Below are positions 7,901 through 11,700 of a DNA stretch of 64,000 bases, in pieces (within the stretch, counting starts at the first letter, position 1; every line of letters starts with the position of its first letter). The notes beneath the pieces were generated by a model. That model ran no database searches. It was given only the letters and a program-made list of their open reading frames with translations, and was not told where the DNA came from. Both the position numbers and the translations under genes were made by a program. Where the stretch lies: NCBI GenBank assembly GCA_051362555.1, contig CM120640.1, positions 61,792,788 to 61,856,787 of the forward strand, given 5' to 3'. Source of the stretch: Lingula anatina. Its lineage: Eukaryota; Animalia; Brachiopoda.

Positions 7901-8750
7901 AGATGATAAACAAGATGACTTAACACTATGATACTCTATGCATTAGAAAAAGGATAATAGAGAAATAAGTGGAAAACGGACTACAAACAAAAATATTACG
8001 TGAAGTCACTTAAATTGTTTATGAATTATTAAATGTCTCCTCTCTTGCTGAAGCGAATAACGCTTCAAGTATAACGTCGTCATCAATTGTCCACTCATGC
8101 ATAATTGTTGCCTCTATACTTGACGAATCACGCAATACCGATCTTCTATCACATAACTTAGCTGACAATCGATGGGCAAATGACACTTACGCATAATTCT
8201 CAACAAAGCAGTACAAACAGAACAAAATGAGCAAAGCAATATGTATGATGTCTTGCGTTTATTTCCTTTTTGCAACCAGAGAAAACACTACCAGAATGTT
8301 AATGGGAGACGCAAATAGTGAGGTACTTTACGGTACTTGAGGAAATGGCATACTTGCATTTGCAATCTATTGATTTATGTCAAAATCAGCGAGACATCAT
8401 TGACACTGCGCATGCTTGAGTAAACAGATCGTGGCTGTCACGAACCAGGCAACTTACACACCGGAATATCAAAGGTCATATGATGGCGAAATGGTCTAAT
8501 CCGCGTAACTGATTCATTTCTGTGACATCGTTTTATTATCGATATCATTTATTTTACTAGCTGTCTAAACTTCTTTGTTTTGATAAACCGAAACGGCACC
8601 TCAATTTTTCGATAAGAATGCCTACCTGTGGAATGTTACATACCGAAGCACAATGCTGTAGAAAAACTGTCACCAACATGTGAGTATATCAAAAGCAAGG
8701 TGGTTTTAATCATGCAAGCTCAAATTATTCCTATTTTGCAGAAATACGAG

Positions 8751-11700
8751 ATGGAACCACAGGGGCTGTCCAATCCAGCGTTCTCGGATGAAAAAGATTC
8801 CCAGATAAATTCTCGCTATAGAGAGATGTCTTCCACAAAGGATGACAAGGCTAGCCGAAAGAGGAGTACTTGGTGTTGGTGCCTTGTTTTTCTGTTGCTA
8901 TTCTTTATACTTGGCGCACTGGTGGCCCTCTTAGCTGTCTTCACGGGTACGTGTGTGGATACTCTTTTAACAATTAGATTAACTCAAAGAGATACATAGC
9001 TATTTTTGACCGAATTCGACCAGAGAGGCCCCTTTGCTCCTTTAACAGTGTGACGCCATTAAGGCCGATTGTCAGTCCAGGTTGGACTTGGTCTGGTCTA
9101 AACGCGCTCGGATTAAATCTAATTTTATAAGTAATATTATTCGAGTAGTATATTGTGCCAGATTACAAGAATGGAGTATCACATATTCTTTTATCAGTAT
9201 ATCCAGAGGTTAAAAAAAAAGCTCGAGGCGCTTACAACTGGTACGGTAAAAATTTTAGCGTTAATGGAAAACTTTACAACCTCTTTTTTATTTTATTGGT
9301 GGCGACACATGAATCAGACTTTCTGACAAATCAAAAGTATCAGTTGCTCTTTCCCACTAATTTGTCTAGCATATGTATTTCTTTACAAAACAAATGCACC
9401 AATCATGACAACGTTGGTAGTATGTTTTGTAAATGTTTTTTTTTCTAATTGTAGTTGCTAATGGGAAGTCTTTGGGTTTTGAACAGCCGCCATCTGCAAT
9501 ACCTGAATCTACAACAGTGCCCGGTCTACCGACTACGGGTCCTGAACTAGCTGCTGGTGCGTACACTTGAAAGTATACTTAAAACAACATGTTGTTACGA
9601 GTAAAACGTAAAAGAGTTTAAATCAAATTCGATCTGTCTAAAAGGAACGTGAGCAGAAAGTTGCTACATGTGTTAAGTTGTTTTTCATTGGTGATAGTAT
9701 GAGGATTAATTTGTGGGAAACTGAACTAGCATTCCAACCTACTGAGCCACATCTCACTTTAGATTTAAGGGGTCTGTGAATCTGCAAATAGCTCTTAAAT
9801 GCCAATTTAAGAATCACAAAATTAATATACGAAGTGTCATTCTGATTCAAAGCACAAGCGTGTCCCCTTAATGGTTAAGTTTATCACACATAATGTGCAA
9901 ACAGGTCCGACCGCCTGTGTCACAAGTGCGGTCACATCATTTTTTCTCCGAAGGTGCAAAGAGAAATGACGAAAATGTTACACTCTGCAAAGATAACCTT
10001 ATTTGTAACGGTGTTGATATTGGCGGAGATTAGTAGAACTGAGTGTAAGAACCAATGGGACATATGTGGAAAATTGAAATCGTGGGGACTTGACAAGGCA
10101 TTGGACATCAAAACATCGCCTACCCCTCCAACGACAGAATCCGACCCGTCTGATGGTGCGTACCCCTATGTCTAAATTCCATAAAAATGTTGTGACGTAA
10201 AAACTAGTAAGGTGCGCTTTATATAAATTTAATTCAATTTAATTTAATTGAAGAGGTGATGAAATTGAAGGCGAATTGGTGTACAGACGGTAACTGGATA
10301 ACTGCTTTTTCCGAGGTGAAAATATCAGGATATACCTGAGGCCATCCAAACTAACATGCCAACTCTATAATATCTACACCAAGGACTTTTTATTAATTAT
10401 ATTTAATAGCAATATCATAAAATATCAAATACCCTTTAACTATCTCCTTAAAATCCAAACCACAGCGTTGACGCATTAGTAATAGGGTTTTTATTCAAAA
10501 CACAAACTTGTCCTTTTTTTGGGCTACGCCTAACACCTTGTATACATGTAGATGGAGAAATAAGCGGCGTTGACTTAGATTGGCCACACCATAAGTGCCG
10601 TCATTTCAACACATCTACCTCCTGAAGTGGCACGGGGAAAGTGAACGAGAATGCTGCAGTCTGTAAAGAAAGGAGTGGCTGTCACGGTGTTGATATTGGC
10701 CGAGATTACTAGTACGGGGTGTATGTACCGGTGGAGCTGGGGAATGAAGACATACTTCCTACCGTATTATCACGTAACATTTTCGCATAAAGGAACTTGG
10801 GTTGTGCATCAGCCGTGGTGGTGTTACACAAACATCTACAGAGCGACAGGTGATATGGTGCTACGGTTGCTGTATTTGATATGCTTCATCAAATATAATG
10901 TGACATGCGTTTTTTTAGGTTTATGTTGTTGAGAAAGTGGGTCGAAATCTGACTTGTCGGAATAATGAGTTTTTTAACGTAATCTATTAACTCAGTCTAC
11001 AAAGTTTTGAGAACATGTGAGTGATACATATGTAGACAATTTGCTTTGCTGAAGTGCTTTGTGGAAAAAAGGGGAAAAAATCAAGACACTTTTAATAAGG
11101 TTAATGTTCCGTTGCTGCACGACACAACAGTGATGCCTTCCTTTCGAAATAGAAAACAACAAATCGATATTTCGCACGACTTGAGAATAATCCACAGGAA
11201 AATCCAATATTCTCCGTCAGAGTGAATCATTTTCTATGTTAACGCATTTATAGGTGTAAAATGCTCGGTAGTCACGCAAATGACTTCCGGTAATTAGGTA
11301 ATACAAGTCAAAGAGTGTTAATGACTTAACAAATCTTCTTCACTGAACCGCATAAGGTGTGCACAGACATTTTTTCACGTTTCTGTTAATTTCTGTTCAA
11401 GTTCCACTAGTGCAGACGAATAATGGGGCCGTGCGGGGAAAAGTAATACAGACTCCAGAGGGCCGATATGTTCAACGGTACCTTGGGATACCCTTTGCCA
11501 AGCCCCCAGTTGGTCAGCTGAGATTTGCTGATCCCATGCCTGCCGATGCTTGGCAAAGTAGGTATAAATTGCACTCAGCTTTCCGAACAATTTGGGTCTA
11601 ATTGTGAATTGTCTACGTCCAAGAATCTACGTCATGAGCAATCAATGCGTATATTACCTTATCTCCATTAATTCCTGGTGATAGTTTAATTGTTACATTG

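What the first reader, a model, noticed from the sequence alone, without database searches (positions are those of the whole stretch)
8680..11402. Cholinesterase with switchable N-termini: type-II membrane anchor versus two duplicated signal-peptide exons
Seen: upstream of the first catalytic exon (11402, phase 1) lie three modules that each end in a phase-1 GT donor and join in frame. (a) A cytosolic tail + TM helix exon (8751-8946) followed by a stalk exon (9455-9556). (b) A signal-peptide exon 9966/9975-10044, extendable to a stalk ending at 10155; that stalk is homologous to 9455-9556 (KSLGFEQ/KSWGLDK, PTTGPE/PTTESD, same TG|GTGCGTAC donor and similar downstream intron). (c) A paralogous signal-peptide exon 10651-10720 with upstream DNA similar to (b). 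A leader-exon donor at 8680 could feed acceptors at 8741 or 9953. Established: metazoan AChEs usually set their localisation at the C-terminus (T/WAT peptide with ColQ/PRiMA, or GPI H-peptide); mammalian N-AChE is an N-terminal exception. Inference: this gene may set membrane-bound versus secreted state through duplicated 5' exons instead.
Basis: partly seen in the sequence, partly recalled or inferred. Interest (0 to 1): 0.8.

Follow-up and report, generated by a model that had tools for sequence, protein, structure and literature searches.

The report
Cholinesterase anchored by its N-terminus
In the lamp shell Lingula, a cholinesterase gene that lacks the usual tail-end anchor is spliced to a front-end exon predicted to tether the enzyme in the membrane, as in relatives from several marine worms, and two duplicated signal-peptide-like exons likely give a rarer secreted form whose splicing the RNA reads here did not show.

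Summary
The anatomy is real: all modules are phase 1 and join exon 11402 in frame. The gene is Lingula anatina 'acetylcholinesterase' (RefSeq X1-X5), with an intact triad and no T or H tail. RNA reads list only the anchor route (8946>9455, 9556>11402; 57 reads in 6 of 8 runs laid), enough to explain about all reads entering 11402; no joint from 10044, 10155, 10720 or 10849 reached the three-read threshold. The stalk, intron and signal-exon homologies are one tandem duplication (9452-10071 / 10063-10744). Both signal-like exons look coding-constrained, and RefSeq models them (X5 donor 10155; X4 donor 10849, not 10720), so minor secreted isoforms are likely but unshown. Switching anchor for signal peptide by first exons is known (weevil PGRP-LB; mammalian N-AChE is related); my paper searches found no description of this cholinesterase clade. 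The scan had not noted it on other DNA.

The parts
7247..7300 (+). Coding part of an upstream leader exon (first 18 residues of RefSeq X1), donor GT at 7301
   Evidence: 18 of 18 residues match P0124; X4 sense depth 0.76 in bin 6870-7296 and 0.02 in 7297-7723 equals about two reads ending at 7300 (arithmetic; inferred)
8530..8679 (+). Candidate minor non-coding leader exon ending at the 8680 donor (5' limit unknown)
   Evidence: strong donor CAT|GTGAGT; X5 sense depth equals one 150-letter read 8530-8679 (inferred, one read); joint not listed
8742..8946 (+). Exon a: acceptor 8742, ATG 8751, cytosolic tail plus predicted transmembrane helix (residues about 45-63 of P0122)
   Evidence: joint 8946>9455 in 79 reads; loose ends before 8739-8740 from two other leaders; 19-residue hydropathy 3.21; helix pLDDT 88-93
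9455..9556 (+). Stalk exon, 39% Pro/Ser/Thr
   Evidence: joint 9556>11402 in 57 reads, 6 of 8 runs laid; composition
9452..10071 (+). Duplication unit 1 (stalk exon, intron, signal-like exon b)
10063..10744 (+). Duplication unit 2 (stalk copy, intron copy, signal-like exon c)
9966..10155 (+). Exon b-long: predicted signal peptide (9966/9975-10044) fused in frame to the stalk copy; RefSeq X5 start; short donor candidate at 10045
   Evidence: P0121; constraint; in-frame 6-nt insertion at 9993 in 4 of 5 X9 reads; joint not listed in reads
10651..10849 (+). Exon c: predicted signal peptide (10651-10720; short donor candidate 10721), extended to donor 10850 in RefSeq X4
   Evidence: P0123, phase 1; in-frame 3-nt deletion at 10787 in X7 and X9 reads; joint not listed in reads
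11402..11557 (+). First catalytic-domain exon (AAG acceptor)
   Evidence: joints
11872..12041 (+). Catalytic exon 2 (choline-site Trp, first disulfide)
   Evidence: joints; mapping
12285..12441 (+). Catalytic exon 3 (oxyanion-hole GGG)
   Evidence: joints
12632..13455 (+). Catalytic exon 4 (Ser, Glu and His of the triad)
   Evidence: joints
13694..13797 (+). Catalytic exon 5
   Evidence: joints
13925..14078 (+). Last coding exon; stop 10 residues after the last Cys, no T or H peptide; read coverage continues into the 3' UTR to about 14555

Best explanation
This multi-promoter gene encodes a tail-less cholinesterase with an intact catalytic triad whose main spliced message joins a cytosolic-tail plus hydrophobic-helix exon and a stalk exon to the catalytic exons, which likely makes it a type II membrane enzyme, and two signal-peptide-like exons made by one tandem duplication likely act as minor internal first exons that would give a secreted form. 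Steps. Shown: exon a > stalk > 11402 splicing, several upstream leaders into 8742, no C-terminal anchor exon, intact triad, one duplication, membership of a clade mostly with N-terminal helices. Inferred: before the duplication one signal exon sat in the intron after the stalk; copying stalk+intron+signal exon left b and c in tandem and fused b in frame to the stalk copy (b-long); transcripts that start inside the intron skip exon a and splice b or c to 11402; the leader is cleaved and, with no tail, the catalytic domain is released. The choice is by promoter, in tissues or stages poorly represented in the runs laid.
For: Anchor route: 79 and 57 junction reads. Tail-less: stop at 14076-14078, no later joint, no PF08674. 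Triad and gorge. Duplication. Constraint on b/c: 23 codons without a gap while the flanks have 29 gap openings in 502 columns at 68% identity; pN 0.21, pS 0.41; hydrophobic core 0 replacement and 2 silent changes; a neutral simulation keeps ATG, frame, donor and hydrophobic core in 0.4-1.7% of runs. Signal-like by my heuristic: 5 of 2619 ATGs of the window, 3 of them in b and c. Both read indels inside RefSeq-coding b/c sequence are in frame (2 of 2); 9825, 10969, 14156 and 14261 outside are not. The stalk copy keeps frame (93 against 81 nt) and the 8-base donor. RefSeq X4/X5. Sense reads lie over b in X4 (about 739 letters in 9859-10285, none in the next bin) and over c in X5 (one pair, 10582-10841 by arithmetic). 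A RefSeq-only leader (X1) also shows only about two reads, so real minor exons of this gene fall below the listing threshold (inferred). Clade.
Against: No b or c joint was listed in any of 8 runs laid; the anchor joint explains about all flow into 11402. Reads over the intron in X7-X9 run unspliced through donors 10156 and 10721 and beyond 10850 (variant rows 10171-10193, 10756, 10787, 10930-11023; mean depth 1.1 and 2.9 in X8, X9 against 17-22 in the exon), which fits retained intron as well. No start of transcription at b or c was listed. The evidence behind RefSeq X4/X5 could not be seen, and such models may lean on ab initio prediction (PMC12605758, passages). X4's 43-residue extension is aromatic and Cys-rich, unlike a linker. 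pN/pS rests on 23 codons; the simulation is crude and the exons were picked because they look alike. SignalP and DeepTMHMM were not available; topology, cleavage and activity are predictions.
Confidence: 0.62

Rival explanations
1. Only the anchored enzyme is made; b and c are fading remnants of an old signal exon, the reads over them are retained intron, and RefSeq X4/X5 reflect noise.
For: No joint listed from b or c; continuous intron coverage through their donors in X8, X9; anchor joint accounts for about all reads into 11402; X4's extension looks like read-through.
Against: Both copies keep ATG, frame and hydrophobic core at about 32% flank divergence; in-frame indels in living populations; the neighbouring introns have no coverage, and in X4, X5, X7, X8 the last 220-260 nt of this intron have about none, which plain retention would not give.
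Confidence: 0.2
2. b and c are used, but as internal cassette exons reached from upstream leaders through acceptors at 9954 and 10628, so the switch is by splicing rather than by promoter.
For: A pyrimidine-rich AAG at 9953 has a counterpart at 10627, and the used acceptor 11402 is also AAG; X9 depth rises from 0.25 to 4.68 at bin 9954.
Against: No loose ends before 9954 or 10628 were listed, although such ends are plain at 8739 (22-28 reads per run); the X9 rise rests on about 3 fragment starts.
Confidence: 0.1
3. The hydrophobic stretches of b and c are uncleaved short signal anchors, so all isoforms are membrane-bound and differ only in cytosolic tail and stalk.
For: No dedicated predictor was run; a Glu follows the 9-residue core and the small-residue pattern allows more than one cut.
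Against: Best 19-residue hydropathy is 1.5-1.7, like signal peptides of relatives (1.6-2.2) and far below the clade's helices (2.5-3.9); the 9-residue core (3.07-3.13) is above the median 2.76 of 134 fetched cholinesterase starts.
Confidence: 0.08

Closest known systems
Vertebrate AChE/BChE with C-terminal T (WAT; ColQ/PRiMA) or H (GPI) peptides (PMC5943944, passages read)
   Same: PF00135 domain, 43-45% identity, triad, choline-site Trp, three disulfides
   Different: No T or H peptide; anchor at the N-terminus; separate clade in the tree
Mammalian N-AChE (PMC2518620, passages read)
   Same: Alternative promoter gives an N-terminally anchored cholinesterase with the catalytic domain outside
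   Different: N-AChE extends the frame in front of the retained signal peptide and is the minor form beside a C-terminal system; here a dedicated helix exon plus stalk is the major form, the signal exons are separate and skipped, and there is no tail
Weevil PGRP-LB isoforms LBt / LBe / LBi (PMC6431197, passages read)
   Same: One hydrolase gene, shared catalytic part, alternative N-termini with a transmembrane helix or a signal peptide; secreted transcript far rarer under normal conditions
   Different: Other enzyme family; there all transcripts were confirmed by RT-PCR and localisation tested; here the signal exon is duplicated and its splicing is unshown
Database models of the same clade: Owenia CAH1800626 / CAH1800629, Dimorphilus CAD5122240 / CAD5115423, Lineus XP_064627667 / XP_064631091, Haliotis XP_067668381
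   Same: One clade (100/100); N-terminal helix and no T peptide in annelid, nemertean and brachiopod members
   Different: Owenia appears to split anchored and signal-bearing forms over two near-identical gene models; Lineus XP_064631092 starts at a Met inside the helix; Haliotis has a signal peptide plus a GPI-like tail; no second case of separate signal exons was found
Aphelenchoides besseyi AChE1/2 (PMC8821594, passages read)
   Same: Predicted N-terminal hydrophobic segments on invertebrate AChEs
   Different: Signal peptide and helix predicted on one N-terminus, no alternative first exons reported in the passages; nematode genes, not placed in my tree
Drosophila neurotactin (type II topology recalled, from no call; PMC10084454 passage calls it type I)
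   Same: Cholinesterase-like domain on a membrane anchor
   Different: Catalytically dead adhesion molecule; the Lingula protein keeps the triad

Membership tests
Cholinesterase (AChE/BChE type, PF00135) | Ser-Glu-His triad and oxyanion hole | tested here: met
   S295, E417, H530, G214/G215, A296 of P0122 align to positions 200, 327, 440, 118/119, 201
Cholinesterase (AChE/BChE type, PF00135) | Choline-binding Trp84 and aromatic gorge | tested here: met
   W180 = W84; 12 or 13 of 14 gorge positions aromatic (442 is Ala; 288 is Leu or Phe by alignment; the list of 14 positions is recalled)
Cholinesterase (AChE/BChE type, PF00135) | Three intrachain disulfides | tested here: met
   Cys at all six positions
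Cholinesterase (AChE/BChE type, PF00135) | Hydrolysis of choline esters, substrate preference | not testable with these tools
   needs assay
Classical AChE line (vertebrate AChE/BChE, arthropod ace-1) | C-terminal T (PF08674) or GPI peptide | tested here: not met
   frame stops 10 residues after the last Cys; no PF08674; no later joint in reads
Classical AChE line (vertebrate AChE/BChE, arthropod ace-1) | Groups with these in a tree | tested here: not met
   falls in a lophotrochozoan clade (100/100), joined to tail-less hemichordate enzymes and set apart from the rest by a 100/99 branch; midpoint root, 33 chosen rows
N-AChE-type extension | In-frame extension in front of the retained signal peptide | tested here: not met
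   exon a and stalk splice past b and c
Anchor-versus-signal alternative N-termini (PGRP-LB type) | Distinct 5' coding exons in frame with one catalytic body | tested here: met
Anchor-versus-signal alternative N-termini (PGRP-LB type) | Both kinds of message exist as spliced RNA | tested here: inconclusive
   anchor joint in 57 reads; b/c joints below threshold in 8 of 8 runs; RefSeq X4/X5 model them
Anchor-versus-signal alternative N-termini (PGRP-LB type) | Different localisation and regulation of the isoforms | not testable with these tools
   hydropathy only; tissues of the runs not given
Cholinesterase-like adhesion molecules | Loss of the catalytic triad | tested here: not met
   triad intact

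The most novel reading that the evidence does not exclude
A second, old bilaterian cholinesterase line dropped the C-terminal anchoring system and, in lophotrochozoans, became an active type II membrane enzyme; secreted forms were then regained at the N-terminus several times: by duplicated internal signal exons in Lingula (a promoter switch), by a tandem paralogue in Owenia, by a start inside the helix in Lineus, and by signal peptide plus GPI tail in abalone.
Probability: 0.4. Interest if true: 0.65.

Novelty: new variant of a known kind. Interest (0 to 1): 0.48.

Why it matters
Cholinesterase localisation is taught as a C-terminal matter. An active, tail-less enzyme anchored by an N-terminal helix in brachiopods, annelids and nemerteans would be a third anchoring design, with a cytosolic tail free for sorting or signalling, and would change how membrane-bound and soluble cholinesterase fractions of marine invertebrates (widely used pollution biomarkers; recalled) are read. 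The Lingula locus also shows how one small tandem duplication multiplies first exons and builds a new signal+stalk exon at its junction. The switch principle itself is known from other hydrolases, the isoforms already stand in RefSeq as automatic models, and the secreted forms are rare or absent in the runs laid, which limits the surprise.

Tried and rejected
No whole genome is held, so other Lingula cholinesterase genes and the distant main leader could not be mapped. The look-up of sequencing runs: no RNA holder listed; nine raw-read runs of the same species label were offered; 8 of 9 were laid (X3 not), each at 6-30% of its reads; X1 and X2 barely cover the gene. The two loose-end leaders have no match in the window (best 12 mismatches of 30). 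Exon a is not homologous to b or c (scores within shuffles), so the helix exon and the signal exons are not paralogues; rejected. A third duplication unit after c was not found. Single-sequence AlphaFold gave pLDDT 35 and was not used beyond the helix; no fold search was run. A first tree did not finish; FastTree (62 rows) and IQ-TREE (33 rows chosen by me from 418 fetched proteins) agree on the clade. No protein related to the b start was found outside Lingula. Paper searches for a type II or N-terminally anchored cholinesterase clade, or for this gene, found none: (listings only, except the papers cited); the library lacks most subscription journals, where cholinesterase evolution papers and the ESTHER database may already note it. 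Supplements were not read.

Full report
Identity. The largest exon matches Lingula anatina 'acetylcholinesterase isoform X2' at 100%. Its cluster holds five RefSeq proteins: X1 and X2 add short leaders to exon a, X3 (four accessions, one protein) starts at 8751, X5 starts with b and runs through the stalk copy to 10155, and X4 starts with c but runs on to a donor at 10850 (phase 1). No RefSeq form in that cluster uses the short donors 10045 or 10721. The protein keeps the triad, oxyanion hole, choline-site Trp, six Cys and 12-13 of 14 gorge aromatics and stops 10 residues after the last Cys, with no PF08674.

Observation. The similarities between stalks, downstream introns and upstream DNA are one event: 9452-10071 aligns head to tail with 10063-10744 (score 291; 100 shuffles 103 +/- 10, best 131). 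The unit is stalk exon, intron, signal-like exon. The long form of b is the junction of the two units: the signal of unit 1 read into the stalk of unit 2. Exon a is unrelated to b and c.

RNA. Nine raw-read runs were offered; eight were laid at 6-30% of their reads; a joint is listed from three reads with two starts in one run. Listed 5' joints: 8946>9455 (X4 8, X5 3, X7 24, X8 21, X9 23) and 9556>11402 (X4 5, X5 3, X6 2, X7 15, X8 15, X9 17). X1 and X2 gave none. No joint from 10044, 10155, 10720, 10849 or 8679 was listed. Junction reads per depth are 57/72 for 9556>11402 and 79/106 for 8946>9455, so the anchor route explains about all reads that enter 11402. Loose ends before 8739 (28, 22, 27 reads in X7-X9) encode the X2 leader and match nothing in the window; a second leader has 3 reads in X8. 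No joint follows the last coding exon, so no T or H exon is used in these runs.

Reads inside the intron. Unlike the neighbouring introns (zero), 9557-11401 has low coverage: mean 1.1 in X8 and 2.9 in X9, crossing the donors at 10156 and 10721 unspliced. In the stranded runs it is sense: about 739 letters over b and none in the next bin in X4; one pair 10582-10841 in X5 (arithmetic from bin depths). In four runs the last 220-260 nt of the intron have about no coverage. This fits retained intron, low-level internal first exons, or both. By the same arithmetic about two X4 reads end at 7300, the donor of the X1 leader found at 7247-7300, and one X5 read ends at 8679: real minor exons of this gene stay below the listing threshold.

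Constraint on b and c. From the shared ATG (9975, 10651) 23 codons align without a gap, while the flanks show 29 gap openings in 502 columns at 68% identity; pN 0.21, pS 0.41; the nine-codon core has no replacement and two silent changes. Neutral simulation keeps ATG, frame, donor and core in 0.4-1.7% of 20,000 runs per setting (crude, small n, exons chosen after the fact). A signal-peptide heuristic picks 5 of 2619 ATGs in the window, three of them in b and c. In the roughly 4% divergent animals of X7-X9 the two indels inside RefSeq-coding b/c sequence are +6 (9993) and -3 (10787); those at 9825, 10969, 14156 and 14261 are not multiples of three, and three rows at 10449-10451 are probably one event; listed substitutions in b and c create no stop. 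Against: the 43 extra residues of X4 do not look like a linker, and the short donors would give a more ordinary mature start, so which c form is real is open.

Relatives. IQ-TREE on 33 catalytic domains (FastTree on 62 agrees) puts the enzyme in a clade (100/100) of 13 proteins from brachiopod, annelids, nemertean, abalone and unnamed records, next to tail-less hemichordate enzymes with signal peptides and apart from vertebrate AChE/BChE and arthropod ace-1. Of the 13, three lack their start; of the other 10, seven have an internal hydrophobic helix after a polar tail (19-residue hydropathy 2.5-3.9: Lingula, Owenia CAH1800626, two Dimorphilus, two Lineus, P0009) and three a signal-like start (Owenia CAH1800629; two Haliotis, which also have a GPI-like tail). 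None has a T peptide (ends inspected; Pfam on ten). These are gene models, sampling is thin, and the root is a midpoint, so 'ancestral helix' is an inference.

Mechanism. Shown: upstream promoters feed 8742 and give tail, helix, stalk, catalytic domain. Rivals: remnants plus retained intron (0.2), cassette use through AAG acceptors (0.1), uncleaved anchors (0.08).

Known and new. C-terminal control in vertebrates: PMC5943944 (passages). N-AChE, anchored by a retained signal peptide after promoter switch: PMC2518620 (passages). Helix versus signal peptide by alternative N-termini: weevil PGRP-LB, PMC6431197 (passages). Predicted N-terminal helices in a nematode AChE: PMC8821594 (passages). On how far RefSeq models rest on evidence: PMC12605758 and PMC3882889 (passages), which did not settle X4/X5. 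Seven searches found no description of this gene or of a type II cholinesterase clade, within a library that lacks most subscription journals. Earlier scan notes show other duplicated-exon systems in this genome (unchecked) and none on cholinesterases. Verdict: a new variant of a known kind; the N-terminal anchor is well supported, the switch is likely but unshown; interest 0.48.

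Noticed in passing
window about 17200-50100: Array of at least four glycoside hydrolase family 1 genes (one on the minus strand, three on the plus strand; PF00232), several ending in a hydrophobic, GPI-like tail.
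   Followed up: partly
window 39200-40706 and 43056-44583: 1.5-kb inverted repeat (95% alike) built of 374-bp tandem units, foldback-element-like, between two of the glycosidase genes.
   Followed up: no
window about 54300-64000, minus strand: Gene with many tandem TIL-domain exons (PF01826) and a 434-codon Asn/Gln/Gly-rich repeat exon at 57117-58421 with no Pfam match.
   Followed up: partly
window 51281-52794: CENP-V/GFA-like gene (weak PF04828 match below cut-off).
   Followed up: partly
window 9557-11401: The only intron in 8400-11700 with read coverage, which fades in its last 220-260 nt in four runs; an unused strong donor CAT|GTGAGT lies at 11017 and an in-phase TAG acceptor at 11410.
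   Followed up: partly
window 6016-6442: About 188 letters of sense reads in X4: possibly another non-coding leader of the gene.
   Followed up: no
P0125 (Lineus XP_064627667): Type II protein with helix, SEA-like domain, cholinesterase, SEA, cholinesterase: two catalytic domains in tandem on one anchor.
   Followed up: partly
P0122 residues 4-10 and P0365 residues 8-14: The cytosolic tails of Lingula and Owenia share a short G-x-x-N-P-A motif near the start, perhaps a sorting signal (seen by eye).
   Followed up: no
runs X7-X9 against the window: About 4% fixed differences in exons against 99%+ identity for X4-X6: the runs under one species label come from clearly diverged animals.
   Followed up: no
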